A DNA stretch of 64,000 nucleotides, from IMG/VR virus record IMGVR_UViG_3300025014_000002. One strand, 5' to 3'. This DNA comes from a virus. Position 1 is the stretch's first letter; the number at the start of each line of letters is the position of its first letter. The notes under the pieces are model-generated. The model worked only from the letters and a program-made list of their open reading frames with translations. It had not been told where the DNA came from and searched no databases. Shown here in pieces: positions 122 to 52,529 of this stretch. A program made the position numbers and the translations under genes.

Positions 122-3100
122 TTACATACGGCCAACCACAACTTCGATAACACCTTCTTCGCCGCTAAAGTTTTCCAAGGACTTGCCAATCACTTGACCG
201 AGTTTTGGATCTGCCTCTGCACGGGCACGGCCATTACCAGCAGCAACCAGCATATCTCCTTTAGATACATTACCAGTTACTTTACACGGTACACGACCTT
301 GTAACGCTACTGCTGCTTTAGTGCCATCAAGAGTGCTGTTCATCAAGTAAGCTGGGTTAGTGGATACTACCCCTGCCAGTTTTCTTGTTCCGTCTGTTGC
401 TAAGGTAACTTCAGCATCACCACCAAACTCTAACACTGTACCAACTTCATATTCTGCGTCAGCAGTATAATTTTCTGCCAAGTCGGCGAATTGTGCTTGC
501 GATGCGGTGGCAGCAATGGTGCCGGCACTAAAGTTACCACTTGCATCACGTAATACGATTGTATTTGCCGTGTTAGCTGAAGTAGCAGTAATGGTTGCTG
601 AGTTTGCTTGACTGGTAATTGTACCAGCAGTCGTAGCAGACCCAACGATGTTCATCGTTTGACCACTTAGGAAAGTAGCCACCGCCGCTGCTGTGCCAGT
701 ACGCAAATAGTTGTCACCAACTTTAACCATTACACCAGTTACTCCAGAAACGGCACTGTTGTCTGATGAGTTAAAGTATGTGTTGATAATATGGCCACTT
801 GCGTCAGCTTGGACAATACGGTTCGCAACACCAGCACTAGCACTATTTGTATACGTGTTCAATGCCGCTGAGTTAGTTGCCGTACCAGCAAACGTAGTAG
901 CAGTTATTGTACTTGTATTTGGAGTAATAGTAATAGATGGTGTATAGTACAATGATCCACTTGAAGTCCAGTTGATTGGGTAACTTCCAGTAGCTGCTGA
1001 CGAAGTTAATACTACCTTATCCGCTGTACCTGTCAGGTTACCAGTAACGTTACCAGTAACGTTACCAGTTAACGGACCACTGAAACTAGTTGCTGTCAAT
1101 GCACCAGTCAATGTGCCGCCAGTTAGAGGTAAGTCAAGTGATGCGTGGCCAGTAACTGCACCAGTTAAAGGACCGCTAAATGATCCAGCAGTTACGGCAC
1201 CAGTAACACCCAAAGATGTTAAAGTACCAACCGAAGTGATTGCTGGTTGTGCTGCTGCTGCTACTGTTGCTGCTGAACCAGATACGTTTCCAGTGACATT
1301 ACCAGTGACATTACCAGTAACATTTCCAGTAACATTTCCAGAAACATCACCAGTTACTGGACCAGTAAATCCAGTTGCTGTTAACGCACCAGTCAGTGTA
1401 CCACCAGTTAGAGGTAGGTCAAGAGATGCGTGACCAGTGACAGTACCAGTTAGTGGACCGCTAAATGATGTAGCGGATACTTTCTTGTTAAAGTTAAAGC
1501 TGTCATCTGCGTTTGCATATAACAGGGTTGCATTGGCACCTGCTACCGTCAATCCAGCACCATTTGCTGCGGCTGCTGTACCTGCACCACTTGCGATAAC
1601 GATATTAGTATCTGCAGTTGAAACAGTCGTTGAGTTAATAGTTGTAGTTGTACCATTTACTATTAAGTTACCATCAACTACCAAGTTCGTACCAATATTT
1701 GCTGCGCCAGATGTAGTCAATGAAGTCAAAGTTCCAACTGAAGTGATAGCTGGTTGTGCTGCTGCTGTTACTGTTGCTGCTGAACCAGATACGTTACCAG
1801 TGACATTACCAGTTAAAGGACCGCTAAATGCCCCAGCAGTTACCGCTCCAGTAACACCCAAAGATGTTAAAGTTCCAACTGAAGTGATAGCTGGTTGTGC
1901 TGCTGCTGTTACTATTGCTGCTGAACCAGATACGTTACCAATGACATTACCAGTTAAAGGACCACTAAACGATCCAGCAGTTAAGGCCCCAGCTACAGAC
2001 AATGTTTGCATTGATGCTGATGTTGTTCCTGACACTGTCAAGTTACCTGACACTGTCAAGTTACCCAATGTTGCTGTACTATTTTTAGCTACGAAAGTTG
2101 TATTAGCCCAAGGTTTGTCAGCCATCGCAATGGTTGACCCAACTGGTCCAAACTGTAACGATTGATCTGCTTCTGTAAATACTAACTGATAGCTGCCAAG
2201 TTGACCGCGAGCAAACTGAATACCCGAAGTACCATTCGTAACGCCCATCCCTGCTTCGCCCGAGTTTAAAATAACCACCGGATCTTGAACATTTAGTTGA
2301 GCAGCATTTACAGTGGCTTGGGTGCCTGTAATAGTTACGTTGCCATTTAATACTGAGTTTCCGTTTACAGTAAATGATCCAGTATTAGTAGTAGTACCAG
2401 TTAAAGTTAATGCCGGAGCAGTAAGTTCTAAAGCAGTAGTAGACAGTAGTTTTGTCTTTGAACCAGTGCCGTTGGATTGAATAGTTACATCAGCATTGTT
2501 ACCAGTTGTCTGAAGTGCCATCGGAGCAGCAGATACTAATGACATTGCTCCAGCTGCACCAGATGTTTGCAAGCTCAAAGATTGGCCTGGATCAGTGTGA
2601 ACGTTAACTACAGTACCAGTTGTACCCAAAATAGGAGTTTCACCTAAATATAAGGTGTTTGTTGATAAACGCAAATCGTTTACCCAAATAGTTTGGAATC
2701 GCTGTGTTGAGCTGCCGATGTTACTTACGTTAGTTACGTGAGGCAAAATATCGTTAGTAGTCAATGTTCCAGTTGCATCAAGAGTCGTAAAGTATGCTGG
2801 GGCAGGAGTTGTTCCACCAATGGTAGTATTGTTAATTGTACCACCCGTAGTAATAATATTGTTTGTAATAACTTCACCAGTTGGTGACAACACGGTTGCC
2901 CCAACTATAAAGTTATTAGTAGTTACAACATTAGCAGTTGTTCTGATTTCACCAGTTGTTCCGTTAATCGTAGTTGCACCAACTGTAATATTACCAGTTG
3001 TACCATCAATAATAGTGCTACCTACTTGAATATTTCCTGTTGTTGTCAAGTTACCTGTCGCTGCAGTAATAACAGTAGGGCCTACTTCCAACCCAGTTTT

Positions 3101-3130
3101 TACTACGAAATTTTCATTTATATTTGCCAT
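122..3130 (-). CDS. Tail fibre/spike-like virion protein with C-terminal intramolecular-chaperone (Peptidase G2/IMC-like) domain
   Basis: 1002 aa, T/G/S/A-rich; three copies of AAAQPAITSVGTLTSL; C-terminus DLAENYTADAEYEVGTVLEFGG...VALQGRVPCKV...VIGKSLE resembles phage fibre chaperone domains. Confidence 0.7.
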   Translation of the reverse strand: MANINENFVVKTGLEVGPTVITAATGNLTTTGNIQVGSTIIDGTTGNITVGATTINGTTGEIRTTANVVTTNNFIVGATVLSPTGEVITNNIITTGGTINNTTIGGTTPAPAYFTTLDATGTLTTNDILPHVTNVSNIGSSTQRFQTIWVNDLRLSTNTLYLGETPILGTTGTVVNVHTDPGQSLSLQTSGAAGAMSLVSAAPMALQTTGNNADVTIQSNGTGSKTKLLSTTALELTAPALTLTGTTTNTGSFTVNGNSVLNGNVTITGTQATVNAAQLNVQDPVVILNSGEAGMGVTNGTSGIQFARGQLGSYQLVFTEADQSLQFGPVGSTIAMADKPWANTTFVAKNSTATLGNLTVSGNLTVSGTTSASMQTLSVAGALTAGSFSGPLTGNVIGNVSGSAAIVTAAAQPAITSVGTLTSLGVTGAVTAGAFSGPLTGNVTGNVSGSAATVTAAAQPAITSVGTLTSLTTSGAANIGTNLVVDGNLIVNGTTTTINSTTVSTADTNIVIASGAGTAAAANGAGLTVAGANATLLYANADDSFNFNKKVSATSFSGPLTGTVTGHASLDLPLTGGTLTGALTATGFTGPVTGDVSGNVTGNVTGNVTGNVTGNVSGSAATVAAAAQPAITSVGTLTSLGVTGAVTAGSFSGPLTGAVTGHASLDLPLTGGTLTGALTATSFSGPLTGNVTGNVTGNLTGTADKVVLTSSAATGSYPINWTSSGSLYYTPSITITPNTSTITATTFAGTATNSAALNTYTNSASAGVANRIVQADASGHIINTYFNSSDNSAVSGVTGVMVKVGDNYLRTGTAAAVATFLSGQTMNIVGSATTAGTITSQANSATITATSANTANTIVLRDASGNFSAGTIAATASQAQFADLAENYTADAEYEVGTVLEFGGDAEVTLATDGTRKLAGVVSTNPAYLMNSTLDGTKAAVALQGRVPCKVTGNVSKGDMLVAAGNGRARAEADPKLGQVIGKSLENFSGEEGVIEVVVGRM

Positions 3131-3236: not shown

Positions 3237-6200
3237 TTACACAGCAATATATGAGCGTAAAACTTTAGCAGTATTGCCTGCTGCAGTACCTGTCGCTTCT
3301 AATATTACGTTACCACCACTTATATTAGCTGTAAATGTCGCAAAAGTTGATCCTGTGGAGCTAGTAACACCATAGGTCGTAATGTATGCGTTAATCCCAT
3401 TGTGGACCACTAATACTTCAGCAACTTGATAGTTTGACCCATTAGTTACTGACACTACATATTTCGCACTGCGATATGTTGCTGCGGCAAAAGTATCTAT
3501 TGTAGTTGCTGATGTTCCAAAACTCGTGCCAGCTTCTGTTGCTACCAATGGAGCCCCACCAGACAATGTCAAAGTAGTGGTTGCTTCAGCAGTTGTAAAC
3601 TTGCCAGTTGATGGTGTTACTGCACCAATGGGTGTATTATCTACGGCTGACAAGCTGAAACTTACACCGCTAATAGAACCACCGCTGATTACCACGTTGC
3701 TTGCATAGATATTATCTACTACTGCAGTTGGACTACCAATGTCACGGCCTGCACCTACTGGTAACAATGCACCAGTTGCCCCGTCAAACTTCCAAGTATT
3801 TGTACTTGAAGTAAGTCCAGTCCAAACTTCTAATGCTGAGTCATCAGGAATGATTTGGTTAAATCCATTTGGACTTGCCAATCCGCTAATAGTTTGCGTT
3901 GTAACCAATACACGAACATCAATAACGTCTGTTGTTAATGGAGCCCCACTGAACTGCAAGGTCGTACCCGCAACACTGTATGCTAAACCAGGGATTTGAA
4001 CCACACCGTTAATACTTACAATAGTGCTGTTTGTAGTGGATGCTGCATTCAACACAAAGTTGGTTGTCGTACCGTCACCAGTAAACTGCTGATCAGTAAT
4101 CAGTGTAAACACTGTTTCAGTAGATGCCCATTGTGAACCGTTCCAGAACTCAAGTTGATTGAAAGTTGAGTTATAACGTGCCATACCTGCTACTGGAGTA
4201 GCTGGGCGTTGACCGCTTGTACCCACTGGCAGTATAATAGAGTCGTTACTGTTGATTTGCAGTTTCGCACCAGCAGTAAATCCACTTGACAACGCTACGT
4301 TACCACCAATCATAACTTGATCAGTTGATGCACTTGCAAACAACAAGGAGTCGTCGTTAACGCCTTTAATCACAGTGTTAACTGCTGTCTTGTTGCTGTT
4401 GATCGTTGAGCCTTCACCAATATTAACGTTACCAGACACACCAACACCGCCAATCACTACAATCGAACCCGTTGAGGTTGATGTGCTAGCAATGTTAGCA
4501 TTAGCTGTAAACTGCCCTGTCACTGTGCTAGTTGCTGCTACCAGTGTTGTAAAGTCACCAGTGCTGCCAGAGATTGGAGTGCCTGTAATAGCACCGCCAG
4601 TTACTTGAGCATTAGCTGTTACCAAGCTGTTAACAGTAGCAGCACCGCTTGTTGACATTGTTGTGAACGCACCAGTTGATCCAGAGATTGGAGTGCCAGT
4701 GATCGTTCCACCTGTCAACGCAACGTTACCCGATACCAAGTTCGTTACTGTGCCAGTTGTTGCTGCCAATGTTGTGAATCCACCTGTGCTGCCAGATATA
4801 GGAGTGCCTGTAATAGCACCACCAGACACCTGAGCGTTAGCTGTAGTCATTGTTGTAAAGACACCAGTTGAGCCGCTGATTGGAGTAGAGTTGATGACAC
4901 CACCCGAAATCTGTGCGTTACCAGTTGCTAATGTAGCAGCGTTTACTAATCCAGCAGTCGTAGTGCCTGACACTGTCAAGTTAGCCAATGTACCAAGACC
5001 AGTTACGTTTGGCTGATACGCTGTTTGCAGTGTACCAGTAATGCCAGCGGATGCTGACAGTGTTGTAAAGTCACCAGTGTTACCAGAGATTGGTGTATTT
5101 GTAATCGCACCACCTGAAATATGTGCGTTAGCTGTTACCAACGATCCAGTAGTAGTAGCGTTGGTTACGTCAAGCGATGTCAATGTGCCAAGTGATGTTA
5201 CGTTTGGCTGTGCTGCAGTTTGTAGCGTACCAGTAATACCACCTGTTGCTGACAACGTTGTAAACGCACCAGTGCTTGGAGCAGCATTGCCGATTGGTGT
5301 GTTGTTGATGCTTGTGGCCGACAACAAACCTGCGTTCAATGTTGTAAACGCACCAGTAGAAGGTGTTACACTACCGATCGGGGTGCTGTCAACTAAACCA
5401 CCCGTAATCTGCGCATCAGCCGTGGTCAGTGTGTTAGCGTTAACCACCATGTTGCTGATTGATCCAGCAGTTGTTGGGTTAACTGTTACCGTACCAGTTG
5501 CTGGCGACAAGGTTACGCCGTTATTAGCTGTTACTGTGCCGTTAAACACTGTCGCAGCGTTAGCAGTTACCGCACCTTCAAGTGCTACTGTGCTGTTGGC
5601 TGTTACTGTGCCGTTGAACACTGCGGCACCGTTCGAAGTCACTGTGCCTGCTGTATTCAAATCTGCTACGTTTGCTGTGCCACTTACTTGCAAGCTGCTT
5701 GTAACGGTGTCTGTTGCTGTTAGCGTTGTAAACGTACCGGTCGAAGCGATTGCGTTACCGATTGGCGTGTTGTTGATGCTTGAAGCTGTGAAACTATCTG
5801 CAGTTAAGGACGTGAACGAACCAGTTTCTCCAGAGATCGGAGTGTTTGTAATGGTGCCACCAGTTATTGTAACGTTGCCCGATGCCAAGTTTGTTACTGT
5901 ACCGTTAGTTGCTGCCAAGTTAGCTAACCCAGTTACGTTGCCACCAGTTACTGTAACGTTGCCTGATGCCAAGTTTGTTACTGAACCAGTTGTTGCTGCC
6001 AATGTTGTCAAACCAGTTATGTCACCGCCAGTTACTTGAGCGTTAGCTGTAGATACTGTACCAGCAGATGCTGTGCCAGTTACTGCCAAGCTAGTCAAAG
6101 TGCCAACGCTTGTTACGTTTGGTTGAGCTGCTGTCTGCAGTGTGCCAGTTAGGTTTGTACCAACCACGTTACCGCGGAATTCTGTCGACACCACTGGCAA

Positions 6201-36453: not shown

Positions 36454-37290
36454 ATGACTGAAAATCAAAATCCTCTTGCGAAACACTTTAGACAACCCGT
36501 TATTCACTTTAAGTTGCCAAGCAACGGTGCTTTTTGGCCAGAAGGTGCGTTAGACTTACCAGTAACTGGAGAGTTGCCCGTGTATTCAATGACAACTAGA
36601 GATGAAGTTATTATACGCACCCCCGATGCGCTGTTAAATGGTAGTGGAGTAACTTCAGTTATTCAATCTTGCATCCCAGAAATCAAAGATGCATGGAAAA
36701 TGCCCAGTGTTGACGTTGATTCTGTGCTTATTGCTATCAGAATCGCAAGTTACTCCAATACCATGGATATTGAAACTACATGCCCACATTGTAAAGGTGA
36801 AAATACTTACGGAATTGACTTGCATAATGTGTTGGCAAATATTACTGTTCCTGATTTCAATAAATCCTTTACTATTGACGGGTTAACTTTCAAGTTTAAG
36901 CCGCGTCAATATTTTCAAATGAATAAAGCAAATTTAGTTGCTTTTGAAGAGCAAAAGTTAATTAACACTATTCAAAATACAGAGTTGGCAGATTCTGAGC
37001 GAACTTCATTGTTTTCGCAACATTTGAACACGATTGTTGATCTTTCGAACCAAATGTATGTTGACTCTACAGAATATATCTTAACCCAAGACAATGTTAA
37101 AGTAGATAACCCAGTGTTTATTAACGAGTTTTACAAGAACAGTGGCAAGAATGTTACTAACCAAGTGAAAAAAATACTTGAAGATTTTGCTGAAACTGCG
37201 AAGATTAAACCTGTGAAGGTTGTATGCAGTGAGTGTGAGAAAGATTTTTCAGTTAATCTTACCTTCGATCATTCCCATTTTTTCGCCTAA
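36454..37290 (+). CDS. Baseplate hub/tail assembly chaperone (T4 gp26-like)
   Basis: IHFKLPSNG, ELPVYSMTTRDE, DVDSVLIAIRIASY, CPHC and CSEC motifs; ends in a T TTT TTC slippery site. Confidence 0.65.
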   Translation: MTENQNPLAKHFRQPVIHFKLPSNGAFWPEGALDLPVTGELPVYSMTTRDEVIIRTPDALLNGSGVTSVIQSCIPEIKDAWKMPSVDVDSVLIAIRIASYSNTMDIETTCPHCKGENTYGIDLHNVLANITVPDFNKSFTIDGLTFKFKPRQYFQMNKANLVAFEEQKLINTIQNTELADSERTSLFSQHLNTIVDLSNQMYVDSTEYILTQDNVKVDNPVFINEFYKNSGKNVTNQVKKILEDFAETAKIKPVKVVCSECEKDFSVNLTFDHSHFFA

Positions 37291-37526: not shown

Positions 37527-37766
37527 TTATTTACTGTGGGGGTTTCCAACAGTTGTTATCCATGCTGAAAATGGAAACATGTTATCGTTGAATTTTTTTA
37601 ATACGTACCAGATACGATTCTCGCTATCCCACCTAGCACCCAACGCTTTGACCTTTTTTATATCCCTTCCGGGGACATTGAGATTTACTCGGTAGGCTTT
37701 GCGGTTGATTTCTTTTACATCATCTTCGAAAGAAAATAGGTTATTACTCATCTCGTATTTAGCCAT
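37527..37766 (-). CDS. DUF5710-like small protein
   Basis: LNVPGRDIKKVKALGARWDSENRIWYV fits the LNVP..K..AKALGARWD...WYV pattern. Confidence 0.6.
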   Translation of the reverse strand: MAKYEMSNNLFSFEDDVKEINRKAYRVNLNVPGRDIKKVKALGARWDSENRIWYVLKKFNDNMFPFSAWITTVGNPHSK

Positions 37767-37792: not shown

Positions 37793-37846
37793 GGTGATGC
37801 TTAACGCATCACCTGACTTTCGCTATCGCGTCGCGATAGCTCAGTC
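37793..37846. repeat. Two adjacent perfect 8 bp hairpins
   Basis: GGTGATGC-TTAAC-GCATCACC (37793-37813) and GCTATCGC-GTC-GCGATAGC (37822-37840). Confidence 0.8.
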
Positions 37847-37904
37847 CTTTTTAGTTTTTGGATTTAGGATGATTTAAATTGAATAATGTTATATAAACAC
37901 GTTA

Positions 37905-38640
37905 TCGCTATCATTTACATAACCGACACCTGAGCGGTTTTTGCGAGCTACTGAAAGTAGCGACCAGTATTGCCAATTACCAAGAGCCAGCACGGCAAAT
38001 GTGAGTCAAAGAAAATCAAATCAAATCATGATTTGAGCCTTCTTGACTCTACGCTTTGCAATTTACCTGTCGCCCTTGCACCTATATCTTCGTTTTAATG
38101 GAGGGGATTGACTATGTCACTCTCAACCAGAAAAATATATTACTCACCCGAAATATTATTTTTCCTGGCACGAAGCGCGTTCGTTAGTGGTACGAGTAAA
38201 GGAGTAAACCGTTACTTTACGCACCAAGCATGATCAAATATATTAGGAAAATGATCTGCCGCTAACCCAGTGGGATATACCGTCTATTATGAACCACCGG
38301 CCGCTTTGGTAAAACCTGTTAAACTATTACTAAAACATCGCTCCAACGTGTGACCAGTTTTTCAGGCACTCAACGCCACCTTGGGGATGATATTTTTTAT
38401 GGTTCCTTTGCTTCTTACACAAAGGTAGGACTGCTCATCGCAGTGTAATAGCTCGCGTAGAGTTCGCTTACAGCAGTGGGCCACACCACCAATGAGGGCC
38501 TTGCCACACAGATACAGGTCAGACTCTGTGCAAATCCATTTCTCTACTAATACTTAAACAGGTGTACTAGCCCGCTGTGTGCATGTGCCTTTGTGGCTGG
38601 GCTTTTTTCAAAAATAATAAGAGATGGTCTCTGATAGCGA
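37905..38640 (-). ncRNA. Candidate large structured non-coding RNA (about 740 nt), class unknown
   Basis: No ORF of 60 aa or more in any frame; 9 bp end-to-end pairing TCGCTATCA/TGATAGCGA; more than ten local helices; late promoter upstream. Confidence 0.55.
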
Positions 38641-38650
38641 AATATATACA

Positions 38651-38802
38651 ATAATTATGTCGTTTTATAAAAATCTATAAAACTGACTAGACGTTTCAAC
38701 GAATCTACCTTTGGTATTTCTACCTTAGGATTTACTGACTCTCTACGTCTGTAATCGGATAATTCTTCCGATGTAAGTGAGTAAAGATCATTTAGACCTT
38801 TA
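38651..38802 (-). ncRNA. Orphan omega-RNA (reRNA) scaffold; predicted guide 38631-38650
   Basis: 90% identical to the 3' end of the tnpB element; compensatory A:U/C:G pair in the ATCGG hairpin; terminal GTTTTATA/TATAAAAC hairpin retained. Confidence 0.7.
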
Positions 38803-38902
38803 CTCAAAACTCATTTTGTGAAATTTAATTTTACCTCCAGTTCCACAAAGTCATTCTAGTTATTTTAAGATCACCATATAAATTATATTAAAGTTATATG
38901 AC
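38651..38902 (-). mobile_element. Non-autonomous TnpB-family mini-element (left end plus omega-RNA scaffold, no ORF)
   Basis: 38651-38802 matches 52378-52529 at 137/152; 38863-38909 matches 51216-51262 at 40/47. Confidence 0.85.
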
Positions 38903-38910
38903 TATTTATG
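38903..38910 (-). promoter_or_regulatory. Late promoter motif CATAAATA immediately upstream of the mini-element
   Basis: Same motif as the other late promoters. Confidence 0.65.
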
Positions 38911-38921
38911 GTAATTTAAAT

Positions 38922-39455
38922 TTAGTAGTAATATTTTTCTAATCCATAAGGAAAAAATTTGTCATCAGATTGGGCTAAAAAATCTTTTAACCTGTAGCCG
39001 AAAACTTGGTTGTAATAAAATAGTGGGTTTAAAGTTGGTTGACGTTTTTCAACAAATACAAGATCGTCAGTCCCGTTGTATTTGATTATAAGAAGCATTT
39101 CTTTTTTGCTATTTCTAGCGTCCTGAGTTGCTTGCTTAATCCACGTGTCCCATTGTGCGACTTTACCCTTCACAATGGCAGCGAACGTGGGGCCTGCTTT
39201 ATAGTTTTTACACTCAACGGAGTATTTGAATCCATCTGGGCAAATCAAATCTCCAAAGTTAGCGTGGTTTAAATCATGTGTCACGACTCGGCGTTGATTT
39301 GAACCACCAAAAAATGAGCCAGAATCTGTATTCCTACGGAAAGCGGATGAAATTCCAGTTACCTTTTCGAAGCGAGATGATAGCAAGTTAGATATCTTGC
39401 GCTCATACGAGGAACCTTTACTTTTGCCGTTGACTTTAGGAGTTACTGTGCTCAT
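38922..39455 (-). CDS. Holliday junction resolvase-like PD-(D/E)XK nuclease
   Basis: KSKGSSYERKIS...GDLICPDGFKYSVECKNYK motif, next to recombination genes. Confidence 0.7.
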   Translation of the reverse strand: MSTVTPKVNGKSKGSSYERKISNLLSSRFEKVTGISSAFRRNTDSGSFFGGSNQRRVVTHDLNHANFGDLICPDGFKYSVECKNYKAGPTFAAIVKGKVAQWDTWIKQATQDARNSKKEMLLIIKYNGTDDLVFVEKRQPTLNPLFYYNQVFGYRLKDFLAQSDDKFFPYGLEKYYY

Positions 39456-39473: not shown

Positions 39474-39659
39474 TTACTTTGCAGACATCAGATTTTTCTT
39501 GTCCTGAATCTCACCGCGTCGCACTTTTGTGAGCTTGCCCAAGTCACCAAGAGCAGCCCTAGCTCTGGCGGCAGCCGCTTTCACGCCCTTTTCTTCAAAC
39601 TTAGCTGATTCTTCAAGATACGCTGCGTAAGCAGTTGCGATTTGTTCGTGTGTTGTCAT
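39474..39659 (-). CDS. Small basic DNA-binding protein, Hc1-like
   Basis: KFEEKGVKAAAARARAALGDLGKLTKVRRGEI resembles short Hc1-family proteins. Confidence 0.5.
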   Translation of the reverse strand: MTTHEQIATAYAAYLEESAKFEEKGVKAAAARARAALGDLGKLTKVRRGEIQDKKNLMSAK

Positions 39660-39716: not shown

Positions 39717-41516
39717 TCACTCAACTACTACTGCTTCTTCATTAGCATCTTCTGTGTCGTCAGTAATATACTGTGTAAACCCACCCTCTTTCTGGACCTT
39801 CAAAATGTTCCCGACACGACTGATAAGCTCATCCTTGTGTGAGATCAGCCAAATACTCTTCTGTGAATCTCGGGCCATCCGCTTGAGAACGCCCATTACG
39901 CTTTCAACGCCACTTGAGTCCAGCCCGTTGTCAATCATCTCATCAATGAACAGAAGGTTGACTGCCTCGTGTGCTGATTCCCATACGTCGCGGAACGACA
40001 GGCTCAACGATAAGATGACCCGTGTCATCTCACCGCGGCTAAGGTTGTAAAAATCAAGCTCACGGCCAAACTCTTCAATGCTGACTGTAAGATCACTCTG
40101 GAACACTACCGTGTGTGGTAGCCCTATTTTTTCAAGGTAGTAAGAGAGCCGTGCGTTGAGGTAGGTAAGATTCTGATCGATAATCCGTTTGCGGATGAAA
40201 CTGTCCTTGTTAGTGAGGAGCTTGAGCAGGAACTCTTGATGATCCTTGAGCTTTGAAGCAGCGTCAATGGTCGTATAGTCCACGACGATGAGTGCGGCCT
40301 CCTCCATCTCCTGGATCTGCTCACTGTATGGATTGACCTCACCAAGTTTGCCCTCGAGCTGCTGTGTGAGGTGCTGAACTGAGCTCTTATGATTATGAGC
40401 GTCAACGATTTTTTTGTAAAACGTGCTCTTTGCAGTCCCAACGCTCCCAATTGCCGCAATCTGCTCGTTTATCTTGACTTTTGCTTCCAAAAGTTCCACG
40501 ATCTGAGCCTCAGCCTCTTCCAACACCGCGATCTTACGCTTCAAGATCTCCTCTTGCTTGCCATCGTGCAAATCCTGCCCGCAAGCGTGGCACTTGTGAT
40601 CCTTGAGTGCTGTGATTTCTGCTGTAGTAGTGTCTCGTGTTCGCTCTTCGCGGGTAAGCTCTGTGGCAGTGCGAGTCAACGCTTTCTTATGATCGTCAAG
40701 TTTTTTCACTGCCAACGCTATCTCATCGTTAGCAGCGTGTGTATCAATCTCAGCATCAATGTCTACCTTGAGCAATTCTTCCAAAGAACTTGACAAATCA
40801 GCGATATCGACCTCATGTTTCGCTTCCCACTGTGCGCTACGCTTCTTGAGAGCGGCGACCTGCTCTTCTATTTTCTTGTTTGCCTCAACACACGCTTTGA
40901 TACGCTGTTCTTCTGCTGAAATCGTGTCCTTGGTAGCGCGAATCTGCTCTTTAAGAGCATCCGACTTCTCACTCAGCACTGTTATGCCAAGCAACTGCTC
41001 AATGATTGTGCGTTGATCGTTAGCTCTGAGGCTCAAGAACGGTTCAGTGTAAGTGTTCAACGCGACCACATTCTTGAACATATCATGCGACATACCTAAG
41101 ATACGATCAATCTCAGCCTGGGTCTCACGAGAATCACCTTGAGCATCATCATCCTGCGCTGCAAACGCGACATCTCCCTTGTAAAACTTCAAGACATTGG
41201 GTTTACGCCCGCGTTCAATCCTGTAAGTGACCCCATCCTTAACAAAGTCAATCGTAGCAAGCATGCCCTTAGCATTAGTCCGGTTGATCAAGTTGTCACG
41301 ACGAATGTCGTTTATTGCCTGCCCAAACAAGGCATAACTCAAAGCGTTAACGATAACAGACTTACCAGCCCCATTACGTGACCCAGCATCATCACCGCCT
41401 AAGTCTAAGTTTTCACCCAACACCAAAGTTAAATCTTTTCTATCAAAGTTTATAGCCTGGGTATTATTCCCAACTGACATGAAATTTTTTGTAGTGAGAT
41501 TTTTTATCGTAAACAA
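39717..41516 (-). CDS. gp46: Recombination endonuclease ATPase subunit (gp46/Rad50/SbcC-like)
   Basis: Walker A NGAGKS, zinc hook CHAC, signature LSRGE, Walker B LLFIDE. Confidence 0.92.
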   Translation of the reverse strand: MFTIKNLTTKNFMSVGNNTQAINFDRKDLTLVLGENLDLGGDDAGSRNGAGKSVIVNALSYALFGQAINDIRRDNLINRTNAKGMLATIDFVKDGVTYRIERGRKPNVLKFYKGDVAFAAQDDDAQGDSRETQAEIDRILGMSHDMFKNVVALNTYTEPFLSLRANDQRTIIEQLLGITVLSEKSDALKEQIRATKDTISAEEQRIKACVEANKKIEEQVAALKKRSAQWEAKHEVDIADLSSSLEELLKVDIDAEIDTHAANDEIALAVKKLDDHKKALTRTATELTREERTRDTTTAEITALKDHKCHACGQDLHDGKQEEILKRKIAVLEEAEAQIVELLEAKVKINEQIAAIGSVGTAKSTFYKKIVDAHNHKSSVQHLTQQLEGKLGEVNPYSEQIQEMEEAALIVVDYTTIDAASKLKDHQEFLLKLLTNKDSFIRKRIIDQNLTYLNARLSYYLEKIGLPHTVVFQSDLTVSIEEFGRELDFYNLSRGEMTRVILSLSLSFRDVWESAHEAVNLLFIDEMIDNGLDSSGVESVMGVLKRMARDSQKSIWLISHKDELISRVGNILKVQKEGGFTQYITDDTEDANEEAVVVE

Positions 41517-41518
41517 TT

Positions 41519-42535
41519 TTAGAGATTCCTGTAAATATCAATCAACACTTTTGGATCGTAATGATCGCTTTTAATCTGCGAAATTTCAGCGTTAACAATC
41601 TGATCCACTGATAAAAACTGAATACTACCTGGCGTTACAACATCTGAGGACACATCTTTTTTCACTGGAATCATCGTAAGCTCTCGCAGTTTATAAGTGT
41701 CAACAAAAGTTTCCTTCACAAAAGTAGCCTCTTCATAACTAATGTCAATGTCCAAGTTAACACGGACATGCATTTTTGGCTTCAAAATAGTTTCAGCCTT
41801 GTTCAAGAGGTGGCTAAGTTGGTAGATACGATATCTGGGCTGATCTGGCCACGAAAAATATTCTGGCTCCCCACCCCACTCTAACACCATACACCCACGC
41901 TCATCGTCTCCGACATCACTGTAGTTATGCGGGAAACAGTTGCCAATGTAGTTTATATTCTTTCCATTTTGCCGTTTATGAAAGTGCCCGCTAAACACTT
42001 GCTCGACACCTTTGAAATGATCCTGCTGTATTTCACCATGATCCGGCATCTGAATTTGCGCATTCATATAGAAATGCGGCAACTCAAAGTGTCCAAAACA
42101 ATATTTGGCATTGATCTTTTCAATTTTCTTATGTTCGTCTTTAACTAGCCACGGAACAATGCTTACATCACTGTCTTTAAAAAACTCATTGACAATGGTA
42201 ATGTTTGGGATATGCCTAGCCCACTCGGCTGATTGAATATCGCGACGATCTCTGAAAAATTGATCATGGTTTCCTGGTATAAAAAACACTTGAGAGAAAT
42301 TTTCTCCGAGAAGTTCTAATATCTTTACAGCATAGGTCATAGTTCGGATATTCATACTTGCACGGTTGTTATGATAATCGCCAAGGAAGAAACAAGTCTC
42401 ACAGTTTTCTTTTTTTGCGGTCTCGATAAACCAATTTACAAATTCAAGACAGTCATTATTGTGGGCTTCACTATTTGATTTCAAACCTAGATGCAAATCA
42501 GTAAAGACAATCGCTTTTTTAAATAAATTACTCAT
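41519..42535 (-). CDS. gp47: Recombination endonuclease nuclease subunit (gp47/Mre11/SbcD-like)
   Basis: Metallophosphoesterase motifs FTDLHLG, FLGDYHN, IPGNHD, FGHFE, SGHFH. Confidence 0.92.
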   Translation of the reverse strand: MSNLFKKAIVFTDLHLGLKSNSEAHNNDCLEFVNWFIETAKKENCETCFFLGDYHNNRASMNIRTMTYAVKILELLGENFSQVFFIPGNHDQFFRDRRDIQSAEWARHIPNITIVNEFFKDSDVSIVPWLVKDEHKKIEKINAKYCFGHFELPHFYMNAQIQMPDHGEIQQDHFKGVEQVFSGHFHKRQNGKNINYIGNCFPHNYSDVGDDERGCMVLEWGGEPEYFSWPDQPRYRIYQLSHLLNKAETILKPKMHVRVNLDIDISYEEATFVKETFVDTYKLRELTMIPVKKDVSSDVVTPGSIQFLSVDQIVNAEISQIKSDHYDPKVLIDIYRNL

Positions 42536-42543
42536 ACGCTATT

Positions 42544-44301
42544 TTAAACTCGTTGGTTAGTGAAAGCAAATACAATTTGCCCAGAATCAAACGCACGATA
42601 GAATCCATTTTGATTCATATTTTCTACTTCAGATTTTTGCGGATCAAAAACAAGAAGTTTGTCTTTTAACTTATGTTTTTGCCAAGCATTTCTTGATCCC
42701 ACTAGCCTACCTGCTTTTGTATACACATATCCTGGAGCAGTAGTATGAGTTGCAGTAAATCCGCAAGCAGAATACACACGGCCAGAACTAAATCTGCGGT
42801 GACAATAACTGATCATTGTTTCATCATCTTTCATTTGTGCTGAAATAAAGTGTTTGATCAATTTTGATGCCCCACCAATAACAGCATATTTTTTCTTAGC
42901 AGATAACCTAAGTAACTCGTAAGATGCTTTTTTTGTGAATCTACTTTTACCAAAGGTGGCGACCATAAATAATTCTCCATTCTCATTTATTAGCCCGTAG
43001 TTCACGCTACTGACACAGTCGCCTTGAATATGATTTTGATCCAGAAACTCTCTTTTGCTTTCACTGTTGAGGCTGATTAGTGACAACTTTCTTGCGAAAA
43101 CTTTGGTTGACAATTTCATCAGGTGTTCAATCCTGCTGATGATAATATCCCATTTGTCATTCAACTCCCAATCCCAAAACTGCATTAGCGTAATTCCAGC
43201 TTTTTCAGAAGCAATGATTTTGTTTAAATGATAACTTTGACTTTTGACAAACTGCTCTGAATGCCAATATCCCCCATTCACTTCAATTCCTAACTTAAAA
43301 TCTGGAAAATACACATCAACTTCTTTTGGAGATATAACACTTCTATTATGGAGTTCAACTGAAATATTTTTTGATTCAAAGTAACTTTTGAACTTACGTT
43401 CCAGTTCGGTTGCGGTATGAGCTACAATGGGCAAACTATGCTTATGAAAGTATTTGTTTAGATTACTACTGCTTACACCTAGCTCAGACGCGAGCTCGCC
43501 GATTGTCTTCACTAGATTTGATGATGCAAGCCAGTCTGCGTTATTTAATTTTTCTAAAACAGATGGGGCATAATAGTTACTTTTCCTGGTATCTCCAGCC
43601 TTAGCTGCGAGGTTTGCATTTTGTAGTGGAACTTTAACTCCATATCTACTTAAATTAGTGGCAGCAACTTTATCACGAATTTCAGGGCAGCTCAACACAT
43701 TTTCCTTGCCATATTTTGTCAAGTTAGCTGCTTTGATTTTCTCTTTAACATCTGCTCTTTGAAAATTTGAAGCAACACCATATTTTTCAATAGTAATTTG
43801 CTCGATTCTTTCTTTAACATTCTTGCTCTGTGCTGGATATGCTACTCCAAACTTTTTAACATTTGAAGAAATAACACGGTCATGAAACTCTTGTGTTTGA
43901 CTATAGTGAGTGGTCCCAAATTTTCTTAAAGACGCTTCAATGATTTTCTCACTATGATCTCCACGCTGCGATGCCCACTCTACCCCATATTTTTTTAAGT
44001 TAGTAGCTTTATTTTTTTCAACCGAGTGTAATCCAGCACATTTTGAACAGCAAAACTTACGATATGCTCTATCGTCTGGATTCCATTTTAACTTATTTCC
44101 GCAAATACACAGTGGTATTTCACCAATATCATTGCTAGCATGAAAAATAAGTTGTCTGGGATTCAAAATTCCATAGTCATAATAATTTTTAAAGATAGAA
44201 TCCCATAACTCTGAATCTATTAGATGCTTTAGGGATAAGTATTTTCTATCTTGAAAGTCTTTAATCGTAATCGCCAGTTGAGTCATAGCTTTGATTGCCA
44301 C
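42544..44301 (-). CDS. Hef-like PD-(D/E)XK homing endonuclease with KYG repeats and GNAT/Mom-like C-terminus
   Basis: Six NLxKYGV-type repeats; EVDVYFPDFKLGIEVNGGYWHS; start overlaps the 3' end of gp55. Confidence 0.7.
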   Translation of the reverse strand: MAIKAMTQLAITIKDFQDRKYLSLKHLIDSELWDSIFKNYYDYGILNPRQLIFHASNDIGEIPLCICGNKLKWNPDDRAYRKFCCSKCAGLHSVEKNKATNLKKYGVEWASQRGDHSEKIIEASLRKFGTTHYSQTQEFHDRVISSNVKKFGVAYPAQSKNVKERIEQITIEKYGVASNFQRADVKEKIKAANLTKYGKENVLSCPEIRDKVAATNLSRYGVKVPLQNANLAAKAGDTRKSNYYAPSVLEKLNNADWLASSNLVKTIGELASELGVSSSNLNKYFHKHSLPIVAHTATELERKFKSYFESKNISVELHNRSVISPKEVDVYFPDFKLGIEVNGGYWHSEQFVKSQSYHLNKIIASEKAGITLMQFWDWELNDKWDIIISRIEHLMKLSTKVFARKLSLISLNSESKREFLDQNHIQGDCVSSVNYGLINENGELFMVATFGKSRFTKKASYELLRLSAKKKYAVIGGASKLIKHFISAQMKDDETMISYCHRRFSSGRVYSACGFTATHTTAPGYVYTKAGRLVGSRNAWQKHKLKDKLLVFDPQKSEVENMNQNGFYRAFDSGQIVFAFTNQRV

Positions 44302-45280
44302 CCATCCCTTGCCGAGTATAAGATGGGTTTAGTGAGTTCATTTCCAAAATATCGTCTCTAATATTTTGATTCTGCTTTTCTATATTTAGTATCCTTGTAA
44401 AGCTATTAGTGATAGCTGATGTGTAATACGCAAATGGATTCTGCGATTTTGATTCATCAAACTGTAGCCCAACCTGTGTAAGTTGAAGGATAGCCTGCGC
44501 TTGCATTTCGTCACGGTATGAGTAACCGCGCCAGTTTGATCTTGTAACATACCTCTCGCATAGCTTCATATACATAGTGGCGAGTTTGTTGGTAATCTGC
44601 CCATGCGTCCTGCAAAACTCTCCAGTATTGATGTCACCTTGCCAATGACTTTTACCAACTAACTGCGGAACCAAGTTGTCGTCTAGCTTGTAATGCTGAA
44701 ATGATGGAAAGTTTACCTTGACATACTTTTTCGGTGTTGGAGTAGCTAATGCTGCTGGCAAATCAACATCCAGCTCGCCCAATCCGTCGTCAAAAATTTC
44801 TGGATCATCAATAACTGATTCGACCTTTCCTTTGACCTTGTTACCCTTTATGATTTTCGGAACAGTAGGAGCAGCAAGTGGTATATGATTCCATGTCATC
44901 AGCCGAAAAATAACATCTTGCGGTTTAATACTGTCGACAGATACAACAGCCAGCTCGTTTCTAGGTTTTTTACCTGCCATAAGCTCAAGTTCTTGAGATA
45001 TTCGAGTAAGACGAGTTGCCCTAGCAGCAAGTGCTTCTGGCGGAAAAGTAGCAGTAACTGATTCTGACTCGCCTGTGTCCTCATCAACAATAATGCGAGT
45101 TTCAGTTTTTTCTTTTAACAATCCTGGAATGTCAGCTAAATCACGTATAATAATATCGTAATCAGCGTATTCGGGTTTAGTAAAGATACAGTATGTGGTT
45201 TTGCTTTTGTGAATCTCTTTAAGAATGTCTTTGTTGTTCAGATAGTTTATTTTTTTAGTTGGTACGATTAGTGATGACAT
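44261..45280 (-). CDS. gp55: Late transcription sigma factor (gp55-like)
   Basis: NYLNNKDILKEI, NWRGYSYRDEM, FDESKSQNPFAYYT...NSFTRILNIEK motifs. Confidence 0.85.
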   Translation of the reverse strand: MSSLIVPTKKINYLNNKDILKEIHKSKTTYCIFTKPEYADYDIIIRDLADIPGLLKEKTETRIIVDEDTGESESVTATFPPEALAARATRLTRISQELELMAGKKPRNELAVVSVDSIKPQDVIFRLMTWNHIPLAAPTVPKIIKGNKVKGKVESVIDDPEIFDDGLGELDVDLPAALATPTPKKYVKVNFPSFQHYKLDDNLVPQLVGKSHWQGDINTGEFCRTHGQITNKLATMYMKLCERYVTRSNWRGYSYRDEMQAQAILQLTQVGLQFDESKSQNPFAYYTSAITNSFTRILNIEKQNQNIRDDILEMNSLNPSYTRQGMGGNQSYDSTGDYD

Positions 45281-51194: not shown

Positions 51195-51214
51195 TATACT
51201 AATATTATCGCAAC

Positions 51215-51222
51215 GATAAATA
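51215..51222 (+). promoter_or_regulatory. Late promoter motif GATAAATA immediately upstream of the TnpB element
   Basis: Same motif as the other late promoters. Confidence 0.65.
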
Positions 51223-51289
51223 ACTATATAACTTCAATATAATTTATATAGTAAACTTAAAACATTAAATAAACTATATAATATAATTT

Positions 51290-52525
51290 ATGACTCAATT
51301 AGTTCTAAAAGCATTCAAATACCGAATCTATCCCACTAAGGAACAGACTAGTTTTCTAGACCGTAACTTTGGAGCGGTTAGATATATCTGGAACCAATTC
51401 GTTGCATCTTTCAATCATAATTTTATTGGTCCTTGTTTGCCTCAAGACGAAAAGTTCATTAAAGACCTACCCGGAAAAGAATTCTTGACTGAAGTAATTA
51501 GTTACGGTCTACAACAGAAAAGAATGGACTGGGTTGAATTCAAGAAGCAATTCTTTTCTAAAAAGAGAGCAGTCAAATTAGGTAGACCAAAGTTCAAGAA
51601 AAAAGGAGTTTCTAATGATTCATTTAAAATTCCAGGTCAATGTCTAAAATTTAATTCCTGTATAAATTTTGAGACTTCTAGAATCAAATTACCAAAGATG
51701 TCGCCTATTAAACTAGTTATCGATAGAAAATTTTCTGGATTGTTGAAATCGGTAACAGTATCAAAGAATAAAGCCAACCAATATTTTGTTTCGGTTCTAG
51801 TTGAAGAACCTATAGAGCTGAAACAAAATACCGGTAGGAGTATTGGTATTGATCTGGGTTTAAAAGATTTACTTATCTGTTCAACAGGCATGAAAATCAG
51901 TAATCCTAGATGGTTTCGTAAAACCCAAACGAAACTAAAAATAACTCAAAGAGCATTTAGTAAGAAAGTTAAAGATTCATCCAGATACAAACAGATGAAA
52001 CTTAAAGTGGCTAGACTTTATCTAAAAGTAACTAACCAAAGAAAGTTTATTTATGATAATCTATCAACTTGGTTAGTAAATAACTATGATACCATAATTA
52101 TGGAATCACTTAAAGTCAAGAATATGATTAAGAATAGAAAATTATCTAAGTCAATTCAAGATGCTTCTTGGTCTACTTTAATCGGAATGGTCAGCTATAA
52201 ATCTAACTGGTACGGTAAAACGTTCCATCAAATAGATACTTGGTTTCCTTCTTCTAAAACTTGTTCTTGTTGTGGTCATAAACTAGAATCTTTAGATCTC
52301 TCTATAAGAGAATGGACGTGTCCTAGTTGCAATACTAAACATGATCGAGATCTAAATGCTTCAGTAAACATACTCTATAAAGGTCTAGATGATCTTTATA
52401 GTTTAACATCGGCCGAATTAGCCGATTACAGATGTCGAGAGTCAGTAAATCCTAAAGTAGAAATACCAAAGGTAGATTCATTGAAACGTCTAGTCAGTTT
52501 TATAGATTTTTATAAAACGGCATAA
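51290..52525 (+). CDS. tnpB: RNA-guided endonuclease TnpB, catalytic residues apparently intact
   Basis: N-terminal KAFKYRIYPT..Q; RuvC-I GIDLGLK; RuvC-II IIMESLKV; zinc finger CSCCG/CPSC; RuvC-III HDRDLNASVNI. Confidence 0.92.
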   Translation: MTQLVLKAFKYRIYPTKEQTSFLDRNFGAVRYIWNQFVASFNHNFIGPCLPQDEKFIKDLPGKEFLTEVISYGLQQKRMDWVEFKKQFFSKKRAVKLGRPKFKKKGVSNDSFKIPGQCLKFNSCINFETSRIKLPKMSPIKLVIDRKFSGLLKSVTVSKNKANQYFVSVLVEEPIELKQNTGRSIGIDLGLKDLLICSTGMKISNPRWFRKTQTKLKITQRAFSKKVKDSSRYKQMKLKVARLYLKVTNQRKFIYDNLSTWLVNNYDTIIMESLKVKNMIKNRKLSKSIQDASWSTLIGMVSYKSNWYGKTFHQIDTWFPSSKTCSCCGHKLESLDLSIREWTCPSCNTKHDRDLNASVNILYKGLDDLYSLTSAELADYRCRESVNPKVEIPKVDSLKRLVSFIDFYKTA

Positions 52526-52529
52526 TTAT
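52378..52529 (+). ncRNA. omega-RNA scaffold overlapping the tnpB 3' end; predicted guide 52530-52549
   Basis: Expected location for a TnpB reRNA; hairpins ATCGGC/GCCGAT and GTTTTATA/TATAAAAC; conserved in the orphan copy. Confidence 0.7.

What the first reader, a model, noticed from the sequence alone, without database searches (positions are those of the whole stretch)
37905..38640. Candidate novel large structured ncRNA (about 740 nt) in a phage core region
Seen: the only long ORF-free stretch in a gene-dense window. Its ends pair through a 9 bp stem (TCGCTATCA/TGATAGCGA). The minus strand has many helices: AGCCC/GGGCT, GCACAGA/TCTGTGT, ACTGCT/AGCAGT enclosing GTAA/TTAC, CCTTTGT/GCAAAGG, TGGTGC-GTAAAG/CTTTAC-GTACCA, ACGAA/TTCGT, CCAGGAAAA/TTTTTCTGG, GAGTCAA/TTGACTC, GCTACT/AGTAGC and AACCG/CGGTT. 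There is a perfect 16 bp palindrome TCAAATCATGATTTGA (38021-38036) and a late promoter upstream. I could not match it to RNase P, tmRNA or group I/II intron cores. Established: phages encode large ncRNAs of similar size (GOLLD, ROOL). Inference: a new member or class; the palindrome could mediate multimerisation.
Basis: partly seen in the sequence, partly recalled or inferred. Interest (0 to 1): 0.75.

Follow-up and report, generated by a model that had tools for sequence, protein, structure and literature searches.

The report
New large folded RNA in jumbo phage
The only long gene-free gap in this uncultured giant T4-like phage holds a conserved, knotted non-coding RNA of about 660 bases that matches no catalogued RNA family; its job is unknown, and related phages carry a different large RNA at the same spot.

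Summary
The window is an uncultured jumbo phage distantly related to Pseudomonas phage PA5oct.

- **What sits where.** Bases 38651-38912 of the gap are an inserted mini-copy of the window's TnpB element, which most relatives lack. The RNA runs from about 38633 to 37975, most likely on the minus strand. It starts 8-40 nt after the stop codon of a resolvase-like PDDEXK nuclease gene wherever nothing is inserted.
- **Conservation.** Seven diverged metagenomic lineages keep it, and its core is more alike in nucleotides than the neighbouring protein genes.
- **Structure.** The consensus fold has 76 pairs, of which 36 show compensatory double changes. 95% of cells pair, against 30-44% in slid controls, and there are two pseudoknot candidates.
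- **Known families.** No Rfam family matches, including GOLLD, ROOL, RNase P and introns. There is no conserved ORF.
- **Same slot, different RNA.** Closely related phages carry an unrelated RNA of about 450 nt here. This is probably the 'twin-box' RNA that this scan already found on other DNA. It shares the same upstream hairpin and downstream two-hairpin tail.

Function is unknown, and strand polarity is favoured but not proven.

The parts
37975..38633 (-). Large structured RNA ('class A'), full conserved extent in this window. Read 38633 to 37975.
   Evidence: nhmmer profile matches over the whole length in L008-L017, L019, L020, L023, L025, L026 and L027, with E from 1e-93 to 1e-147.
38620..38632 (-). 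5' mini-hairpin AGAGACCAUCUCU (core GAGACCAUCUC). It is the first conserved feature after the nuclease gene.
   Evidence: This is the only exact copy in the 64-kb window. It lies at the same place in all class A loci, occurs 3x in L020, and occurs 2x in L026, where the first copy shows the compensatory change GACACCATGTC. It also precedes the unrelated class B RNA in L021/L041/L045/L120.
38569..38603 (-). Variable 5' hairpin AGCCC...GGGCU. On the plus strand it is followed by TTTTTT and so looks like a terminator.
   Evidence: AGCCC/GGGCT becomes AGTCC/GGACT in L008 and is kept in L027. L019, L020, L023, L025 and L026 have a different sequence here.
38258..38551 (-). Most conserved core. Helices, in window coordinates:
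- 38546-38542 / 38462-38458
- 38531-38525 / 38512-38506
- 38505-38502 / 38475-38472
- 38500-38497 / 38482-38479
- 38453-38445 / 38330-38322
- 38444-38440 / 38434-38430
- 38394-38389 / 38339-38334
- 38384-38378 / 38349-38343
- 38300-38294 / 38273-38267
It also holds the invariant 17-mer CUGCGAUGAGCAGUCCU.
   Evidence: Nucleotide identity of the 5' half 38258-38633, which holds this core, to L008 is 94.7%, against 84-91% for the flanking genes. Identity of the core itself to L019, L020 and L027 is 76-80%, against 61-70% for their hub or nuclease genes.
37984..38192 (-). 3' domain. It holds helix 38174-38170 / 38093-38089, the invariant block GACAUAG(U)CAAUCCCC within 38101-38130, GCGAC(A)GG, and CACAUUUGCCGUG at 37991-38003. 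The last block may pair with the loop of the 38500 hairpin to form a pseudoknot.
   Evidence: The candidate pseudoknot is A5 columns 242-246 with 781-785 and is 97.8% paired.
38005..38052 (-). Lineage-specific expansion hairpin GAGUCAA.../...UUGACUC. Its tip is the 16-bp palindrome at 38021-38036.
   Evidence: It is present only in the window and the L008 group. The tip differs in L008, and the hairpin is replaced by a shorter sequence in the other lineages.
37793..37846 (-). Conserved two-hairpin 'tail'. Stem-loop 1 (37846-37815) has a loop built on GAGCGAUAGCGAAA, expanded here into a palindrome. Hairpin 2 (37813-37793) is GGUGAUGC/GCAUCACC.
   Evidence: Both stems covary across class A and class B loci: window, L020, L026, L027, L006, L053, L064, L073 and L092.
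38651..38912 (-). Inserted mini-copy of the ends of the window's TnpB element. It is not part of the RNA and separates the nuclease gene from it.
   Evidence: blastn gives 90% identity over 152 nt to 52378-52529 and 84% over 50 nt to 51213-51262. It is absent from L008, L009, L012, L014, L016 and L017, and present in L010 and L002.
38922..39455 (-). Resolvase-like PDDEXK_15 nuclease gene. The RNA always lies directly downstream of it, in the same orientation.
   Evidence: Pfam PF24608, E 4.9e-24. PHROG 244, RusA-like resolvase. Synteny is shown.
37527..37766 (-). DUF5710 gene downstream of the tail, on the same strand. It is present in only some RNA-bearing lineages.
   Evidence: Pfam PF18974. 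It is present in the L008 group, L025 and L027, and absent in L019, L020 and L023.

Best explanation
Bases 38633 to 37975 on the minus strand are the gene for a pseudoknotted non-coding RNA of an undescribed family, here called class A. It is about 660 nt in this phage and 470-640 nt in relatives.

**Shown**
- The sequence and its base pairs are kept by selection in seven diverged lineages of uncultured jumbo T4-like phages.
- It always sits in one orientation directly behind the resolvase-like nuclease gene that ends the late-sigma/SbcD/SbcC/Hc1/nuclease gene string.
- It encodes no conserved protein.
- It matches no Rfam family.

**Inferred**
- Only 8-40 nt separate it from the nuclease stop codon, and no conserved promoter lies there. 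It is therefore most likely made as the 3' extension of that operon's transcript.
- It is probably set free or protected at the conserved GAGACCAUCUC hairpin on the 5' side and at the two-hairpin tail on the 3' side.
- It probably then acts in trans as a folded RNA: a scaffold or ribonucleoprotein partner, an RNA-only assembly of the ROOL/GOLLD type, or a ribozyme.
- Close relatives carry an unrelated large RNA (class B) between the same flanking modules. The slot therefore seems to need 'a large folded RNA' rather than this particular sequence, which suggests that the two classes do the same job.
For: **Conservation**
- The gap is conserved and ORF-free in relatives fetched through the flanking hub protein and through conserved RNA words.
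- A profile covers the whole element with E from 1e-93 to 1e-147.
- The core is more alike in nucleotides than the flanking genes.

**Structure**
- RNAalifold predicts 76 pairs, 36 of them with compensatory changes.
- 95.4-95.9% of cells pair, against 30-44% when partners are slid. 36 pairs show double changes, against 6-9 slid and 17 shuffled. 0 of 500 shuffles reach the observed values.
- The pseudoknot stem GYG/CRC shows CG 4, UA 4 and AU 1.

**Not coding**
- The longest stop-free stretches are 55-125 aa and are not shared between lineages. Indel lengths between lineages follow no reading frame.

**Not a known family**
-.

**Strand**
- The consensus energy favours the minus strand: -66.0 against -63.8 overall and -55.1 against -47.8 for the core.
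- 37 pairs show double changes on the minus strand, against 28 on the plus.
- Two covarying helices contain G-U cells that would be A-C on the plus strand.
- The orientation relative to the nuclease gene is the same in every lineage.

**Same slot and flanking modules as class B**
-.
Against: - No expression data exist for any carrier; all are metagenomic contigs.
- Strand polarity is not settled. In helices predicted on both strands, G-U is 10 cells against 4 for A-C. At helix neighbours it is 25 against 29.
- One hairpin in the 3' domain (A5 columns 620-643) is better on the plus strand.
- The 3' domain's consensus energy favours the plus strand, -7.3 against -2.1.
- Single-sequence z-scores are weak and mixed across lineages.
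- There are only seven lineages and nine distinct sequences. Shuffle controls ignore relatedness.
- Processing at the flanking hairpins and action in trans are inference only.
- In window, L008 and L027 the 5' hairpin reads as a plus-strand terminator.
Confidence: 0.7

Rival explanations
1. The element is the same and its structure is real, but the functional transcript is the plus strand. It would start near the tail and end at the hairpin plus T-run at 38569-38610, converging on the nuclease gene.
For: - The plus strand has a terminator-like hairpin followed by TTTTTT at 38569-38610 in window, L008 and, more weakly, L027.
- The plus-strand consensus fold is nearly as good: -63.8 kcal/mol, 66 pairs, 28 with double changes.
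- Hairpin A5 620-643 has G-U/G-C alternation only on the plus strand.
- The fair G-U against A-C tests are near neutral.
Against: - The terminator-like hairpin and the TATAAACA at 37893 are not conserved in L019, L020, L023, L025 or L026.
- The core folds better on the minus strand.
- Helices 38546/38458 and 38174/38089 covary and hold G-U cells that break on the plus strand.
- The minus-strand orientation follows the upstream operon in every lineage.
Confidence: 0.15
2. It is a cis-acting 3' untranslated region of the recombination operon. A structured block would stabilise, terminate or regulate the nuclease/SbcCD message rather than act as a free RNA.
For: - It begins 8-40 nt after the nuclease stop codon, with no conserved promoter in between.
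- It is followed by hairpins that could serve as a 3' end.
Against: - About 500-650 nt with more than 70 covarying pairs, pseudoknots and long invariant single-stranded blocks is far more than known stabilisers or terminators need.
- In this window, L010 and L002 a 260-nt transposon remnant separates it from the gene without any decay of the RNA.
- Many relatives of the nuclease gene have no such downstream element at all.
Confidence: 0.08
3. It is a DNA-level or R-loop element. It could be a replication origin whose transcript primes DNA synthesis (T4 oriF/oriG or ColE1 RNA II style), or a structured single-stranded DNA signal.
For: - It lies among recombination and replication genes.
- Other follow-ups in this scan proposed RNA-primed origins for other jumbo-phage RNAs.
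- Watson-Crick covariation alone does not separate RNA from ssDNA hairpins.
Against: - There is one copy in 64 kb and no GC-skew turn at the locus.
- No iterons or AT-rich unwinding block are conserved next to it.
- 58 G-U cells sit inside helices, which is hard to reconcile with DNA hairpins.
- Pseudoknots and long invariant loops are not features of known primer RNAs.
Confidence: 0.05
4. It is a decayed gene, or the remnant of a mobile element or intron (group I or II, or a TnpB omega RNA).
For: - A TnpB mini-element abuts it.
- Homing endonuclease genes are nearby.
- The block GACAUAGUC loosely recalls the group I S element. That resemblance is from memory only.
Against: - There are 13-21 stops in every frame, and no frame is conserved between lineages.
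- It has no similarity to the TnpB element or to anything else in the window.
- No intron or ribozyme model hits at E<=10 in any homologue.
- It is not inside a gene, so there are no exons to join.
- Its position is fixed and syntenic, not mobile.
- Purifying selection on base pairs is the opposite of decay.
Confidence: 0.02

Closest known systems
ROOL (RF03087) and GOLLD (RF01998) large ornate RNAs of phages and prophages
   Same: It is a large (about 0.5-0.8 kb), highly structured, phage-borne non-coding RNA with many covarying helices and pseudoknots and no known function. Cryo-EM of ROOL and GOLLD shows RNA-only multimers (bioRxiv 10.1101/2024.12.08.627333, also PMC12286853, listed).
   Different: - There is no sequence or covariance-model similarity.
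- The genomic setting differs: behind a resolvase-like nuclease gene in T4-like jumbo phages.
- There is no evidence here for multimerisation.
'Twin-box' pseudoknotted RNA behind the resolvase gene of uncultured jumbo phages. It is known only from this scan's earlier notes and is called class B here.
   Same: - Same slot, directly downstream of the PDDEXK_15 nuclease gene, and same orientation.
- Same downstream tail: a covarying stem with loop GAGCG(A/U)NAGCGA(A), then a second hairpin.
- In one clade, the same upstream GAGACCAUCUC hairpin.
- Both are strongly supported by covariation.
   Different: - No homology is detectable in either direction by HMM or covariance model.
- The helix order and the invariant blocks differ.
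- No twin boxes were found in class A.
- Class A is rarer: 7 lineages here, against class B in 17 distinct fetched contigs, including four nuclease relatives at 70-74% identity.
TnpB omega RNA (IS605/IS607 elements)
   Same: It is a structured RNA lying immediately 3' of a nuclease gene. A real TnpB right-end copy sits next to it in this window.
   Different: - The RNA shares no sequence with the window's TnpB element.
- It is fixed and syntenic, not mobile.
- It is three times longer.
- Most relatives of the PDDEXK nuclease have no downstream RNA.

Membership tests
GOLLD (RF01998) / ROOL (RF03087) | Match to the family covariance model | tested here: not met
   There is no hit at gathering score over the window. 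There is none at E<=10 over the element or over seven homologous loci.
Group I / group II introns (RF00028, RF00029 and related) | Covariance-model match, and insertion within a gene with exons that join in frame | tested here: not met
   No intron model hits at E<=10. The element lies between genes, after a stop codon.
RNase P RNA / tmRNA | Covariance-model or ARAGORN match | tested here: not met
TnpB omega RNA | Sequence continuity with the 3' end of a tnpB gene or transposon right end | tested here: not met
   Only 38651-38802 matches the tnpB 3' end. The RNA at 37975-38633 has no match in the window.
Class B 'twin-box' resolvase-downstream RNA (scan-internal, unpublished) | Sequence or structure homology to class B members | tested here: not met
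   The class B HMM finds 18 matches in 17 distinct contigs but none in class A loci. Neither the class A HMM nor model R1 finds any class B locus.
Class B 'twin-box' resolvase-downstream RNA (scan-internal, unpublished) | Position directly behind the PDDEXK_15 gene, with the conserved two-hairpin tail | tested here: met
Class B 'twin-box' resolvase-downstream RNA (scan-internal, unpublished) | Two short boxes identical to each other within a phage but differing between phages | tested here: not met
   The column-wise search for co-varying direct repeats in A5 found none. In class B the boxes are visible...GGAUGAA... twice, or ...ACAGAA... twice.
Polynucleobacter-1 motif (RF01718), named as closest known in earlier notes | Covariance-model match | tested here: not met
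   No RF01718 hit at E<=10 in class A loci or in seven class B loci.

The most novel reading that the evidence does not exclude
The slot behind the resolvase-like nuclease gene of these jumbo phages is a cassette. It holds interchangeable, non-homologous large RNAs (class A here, class B in close relatives), framed by the same 5' hairpin and 3' tail. The two classes would then be functional analogues of an RNA machine: a ribozyme, or an RNA-only or RNP assembly that works with the phage recombination/replication apparatus. If so, this is a natural case of convergent large RNAs doing one job.
Probability: 0.25. Interest if true: 0.9.

Novelty: new variant of a known kind. Interest (0 to 1): 0.72.

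Why it matters
Large RNAs with complex folds and no known function are rare. GOLLD, ROOL, OLE and raiA are the main examples, and each one solved so far has shown unexpected biology, such as RNA-only cages.

This RNA is a new family. It has strong comparative support, a defined gene neighbourhood, and a natural comparison partner: a second, unrelated large RNA in the same slot of sister phages. That pairing gives a direct experiment, namely swapping or deleting the cassette. It also gives a way to tell which features the function needs (the shared flanking modules) from those it does not (the fold itself).

It also warns annotators that the 'empty' gap behind the resolvase gene of T4-like jumbo phages is a gene.

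Tried and rejected
**Searches that found nothing**
- megablast and blastn of the whole gap against 50,697 phage records: no match. No cultured phage carries the RNA.
- PA5oct, the closest isolate at 50% SbcC identity, has a rearranged locus and no similar sequence. Its four published ncRNAs lie elsewhere (PMC7318152).
- Two first k-mer scans of IMG/VR failed because they used lineage-specific parts of the RNA.
- A genome-contig scan with the 23-base core pattern gave 0 hits in 185,579 prokaryote genomes.
- Model R1 (the 125-nt 5' domain) found no further members among 90 other loci.
- Literature searches found no description of such an RNA.

**Ideas tested and dropped**
- The region 38655-38900 first looked like a decayed small helix-turn-helix gene. 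It is in fact the TnpB mini-element.
- Block-wise resemblance between the 3' domains of class A and class B (UCAAUCCCCCUCC against UCAACCGCCUCC, and AAUCU...UAG) was tested with a focused HMM and is not significant.

**Tests that did not settle strand polarity**
- The raw count of 58 G-U against 6 A-C cells is biased, because the fold was predicted on that strand.
- The fair versions of the test are nearly neutral.
- MFE z-scores per lineage do not discriminate.
- A over U among unpaired bases (31% against 27%) and G over C among paired bases lean only weakly to the minus strand.

Full report
**Setting**

The window is a gene-dense piece of an uncultured jumbo phage. Its SbcC-like protein is 50% identical to that of Pseudomonas phage PA5oct and 43-44% identical to those of Atu_ph07-type phages.

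On the minus strand the genes run in this order:
- late sigma factor, 44261-45280
- an inserted HNH/homing endonuclease, 42544-44301
- SbcD, 41519-42535
- SbcC, 39717-41516
- a 61-aa protein, 39474-39659; its counterparts in relatives carry the Hc1 family
- a resolvase-like PDDEXK_15 nuclease, 38922-39455
- the gap
- a DUF5710 gene, 37527-37766

A baseplate-hub gene (36454-37290) and a 72-aa ORF lie on the plus strand.

**The observation**

The gap is the only long ORF-free stretch in 64 kb. At an 80-aa stop-to-stop threshold it is 1134 nt, and the next longest is 238 nt. The quoted 9-mers and the 16-bp palindrome are in the sequence. Rfam gives nothing at gathering score or at E<=10, and ARAGORN finds nothing.

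**The gap is composite**

Bases 38651-38802 match the 3' end of the window's tnpB gene, at 90% over 152 nt. Bases 38863-38912 match that element's left end, at 84% over 50 nt (lead from note e1-5324459). This mini-element is missing from most close relatives (L008, L009, L012, L014, L016, L017). It is present in L010 and L002. It was inserted into the 23 nt between the nuclease stop codon and the start of the conserved non-coding element, and it left that element intact.

**Relatives**

The hub protein led to contigs at 89% amino-acid identity (P0001; L008-L017). All of them have a gene-free gap of 915-965 nt in the same place. More distant carriers were found in three ways:
- through hub homologues (L019 and L020);
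- by scanning IMG/VR for words that are invariant in the element (L023, L025, L026, L027);
- by scanning JGI metagenomes for such words.

This gives seven lineages. A profile of the whole element matches each of them end to end, with E from 1e-93 to 1e-147. In every lineage the element lies directly after the nuclease gene, in the same orientation.

Its 5' half is 94.7% identical between the window and L008, while the flanking genes are 84-91% identical. Against L019, L020 and L027 the core is 76-80% identical, where the hub or nuclease genes are 61-70%. All six frames are full of stops, the longest open stretches are not shared, and the indels between lineages are not multiples of three. This is non-coding sequence under selection.

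**Structure**

RNAalifold on nine distinct sequences (alignment A5) predicts 76 pairs in 13 helices, and 36 of those pairs show compensatory double changes.

| Measure | Observed | 3' partners slid 1-3 columns | Shuffled |
|---|---|---|---|
| Cells forming a standard pair | 95.4% | 30-44% | 84% |
| Pairs with double changes | 36 | 6-9 | 17 |

No shuffle out of 500 reaches any observed measure. Relatedness inflates shuffle tests, but the slid controls keep relatedness and are far lower.

Two pseudoknot candidates improve the model:
- A 3-bp stem GYG/CRC whose middle pair is C-G in 4 sequences, U-A in 4 and A-U in 1. Its loop holds the 3' strand of helix 38546-38542 / 38462-38458.
- Pairing of the loop of the 38500 hairpin (GGUGU) with the invariant ACAUU of the 3' block CACAUUUGCCGUG.

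Long invariant single-stranded blocks are typical of RNAs with tertiary structure. Examples here are CUGCGAUGAGCAGUCCU, GGAGCGAUGUUUUAG, CGGUAUAUCCCAC, CACGCCUGG and GACAUAGUCAAUCCCC.

They are real: for example A-U becomes G-C in CCAGAAAAATAT/ATATTTTTCTGG between the window and L008. They are not part of the shared core. The 16-bp palindrome is the tip of one such hairpin and is not conserved. The terminal 9-bp stem is not conserved either.

**Strand**

The minus strand is favoured on four counts:
- The consensus energy is better: -66.0 against -63.8 kcal/mol overall and -55.1 against -47.8 for the core.
- More pairs show double changes, 37 against 28.
- Two strongly covarying helices hold G-U cells that would be A-C mismatches on the plus strand.
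- The orientation relative to the upstream operon never changes.

The case is not closed:
- The raw count of 58 G-U against 6 A-C cells is biased by predicting on that strand.
- Fair counts are 10 against 4 in shared helices and 25 against 29 at their edges.
- One 3'-domain hairpin is better on the plus strand.
- MFE z-scores are mixed.
- In three lineages the 5' hairpin doubles as a plus-strand terminator look-alike.

I put the minus strand at about 0.75-0.8.

**Flanking modules**

*Upstream.* The mini-hairpin GAGACCAUCUC occurs once in the 64-kb window. It is present in all class A loci, three times in L020 and twice in L026, where one copy carries a compensatory change in the stem.

*Downstream.* After an A-rich spacer comes a two-hairpin tail. 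The first part is a 5-7-bp covarying stem with a 13-nt near-invariant loop, GAGCG(A/U)NAGCGA(A). The second is a hairpin whose every pair covaries.

In the window its loop is expanded into a palindrome. Read on the other strand, stem-loop 1 is followed by a U-run, so the tail may also end transcripts coming from the converging hub operon. That point is inference.

**A second RNA in the same slot**

Of 80 IMG/VR loci fetched through the nuclease protein, only the four already known carry class A. Many of the nearest relatives instead have another conserved ORF-free element of about 450 nt, called class B here. These include four lineages whose nuclease is 70-74% identical to the window's.

Class B has its own strong covariation: 62 pairs, 43 with double changes. 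It carries two short boxes that are alike within a phage and differ between clades. This fits the 'twin-box RNA behind the resolvase gene' that earlier follow-ups of this scan reported on other genomes. So the scan has seen this slot before on other DNA, but not this RNA.

Class A and class B share the tail and, in one clade, the upstream hairpin. No HMM or covariance model links their bodies, and class A has no twin boxes.

In a nuclease tree, all class A carriers and three class B carriers form one supported clade (98/90), with the other class B carriers outside it. Class A therefore probably replaced class B within that clade. A single origin is not excluded, and the tree is short and only partly resolved. 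Many more distant nuclease loci have no downstream gap at all, so the RNA is not an obligate partner of the nuclease.

**What it is likely to do**

*Shown:* a selected, intricately folded, non-coding element at a fixed place.

*Inferred:*
- It is transcribed as the tail of the recombination operon, because there is no room for, and no sign of, a conserved promoter.
- It is bounded by the flanking hairpins.
- It acts as a folded RNA in trans.

Its size, pseudoknots and invariant loops argue against a mere terminator or stabiliser. The single copy, the lack of a skew turn and the many G-U pairs argue against an origin or a DNA structure. Whether it is a scaffold, an RNA-only assembly or a ribozyme cannot be told with these tools.

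**Novelty**

No Rfam 15 family matches this RNA in any lineage. No cultured phage holds it, and neither does any of 185,579 prokaryote genomes. No paper found describes it. It is a new family within the known kind 'large ornate phage RNAs of unknown function'. Its added point of interest is a non-homologous counterpart in the same cassette.

Noticed in passing
window 38651-38912: This is a mini-copy of both ends of the window's TnpB element (51213-52529) with no nuclease ORF. It was inserted exactly between the nuclease stop codon and the RNA. It is present in L010 and L002 and absent from six other close relatives. The sequence next to its right end (TGTATATATTTCGCTATCAG on the minus strand) would be the guide of the orphan omega RNA.
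   Followed up: partly
L053:2996-3470, L064:2985-3483, L073:2977-3438, L041:3055-3587, L119-L124 and others: A second, unrelated conserved structured RNA ('class B', about 450 nt) occupies the same slot behind the nuclease gene in sister phages. It has 62 pairs, 43 of them compensatory. It carries twin boxes: ...GGAUGAA... twice in one clade and ...ACAGAA... twice in another.
   Followed up: partly
window 37793-37846; also L006:7040-7120, L073:3372-3448, L020:5630-5706, L027:8712-8791: A two-hairpin module with a near-invariant 13-nt loop, GAGCG(A/U)NAGCGA(A) (a tandem AGCGA), and fully covarying stems is shared by class A and class B loci. Read on the opposite strand, it is followed by a U-run and could terminate the hub operon.
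   Followed up: partly
L020:4843-4948; L026 about 4795-4835; L045 about 3035-3130: The GAGACCATCTC hairpin is repeated two or three times at a spacing of about 35-48 nt in some lineages. The ACCA in its loop is invariant. Whether it is an RNA processing site or a protein-binding site is unknown.
   Followed up: no
window 38569-38610 (+): A hairpin AGCCCGC...GCTGGGCT followed by TTTTTT reads as a plus-strand intrinsic terminator inside the 5' end of the RNA. It is conserved only in the window, L008 and L027 lineages.
   Followed up: partly
window 42544-44301 (-): A 585-aa HNH/homing-endonuclease gene (PHROG 3339, E 2e-119; DUF7487) sits between the late sigma factor gene and SbcD. PA5oct has the sigma and SbcD genes adjacent.
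   Followed up: no
L001:11017-12531 (PA5oct 75,666-77,180): PA5oct has a 1.5-kb stretch next to its resolvase gene that is annotated only with four CDSs of 38-50 aa. It shows no similarity to class A or class B, and the resolvase gene is inverted there.
   Followed up: partly
L020:5261-5608: The source's gene caller placed a 115-aa ORF over the 3' half of the RNA in this lineage. The frame is not open in any other lineage, so it is probably a false gene call.
   Followed up: partly
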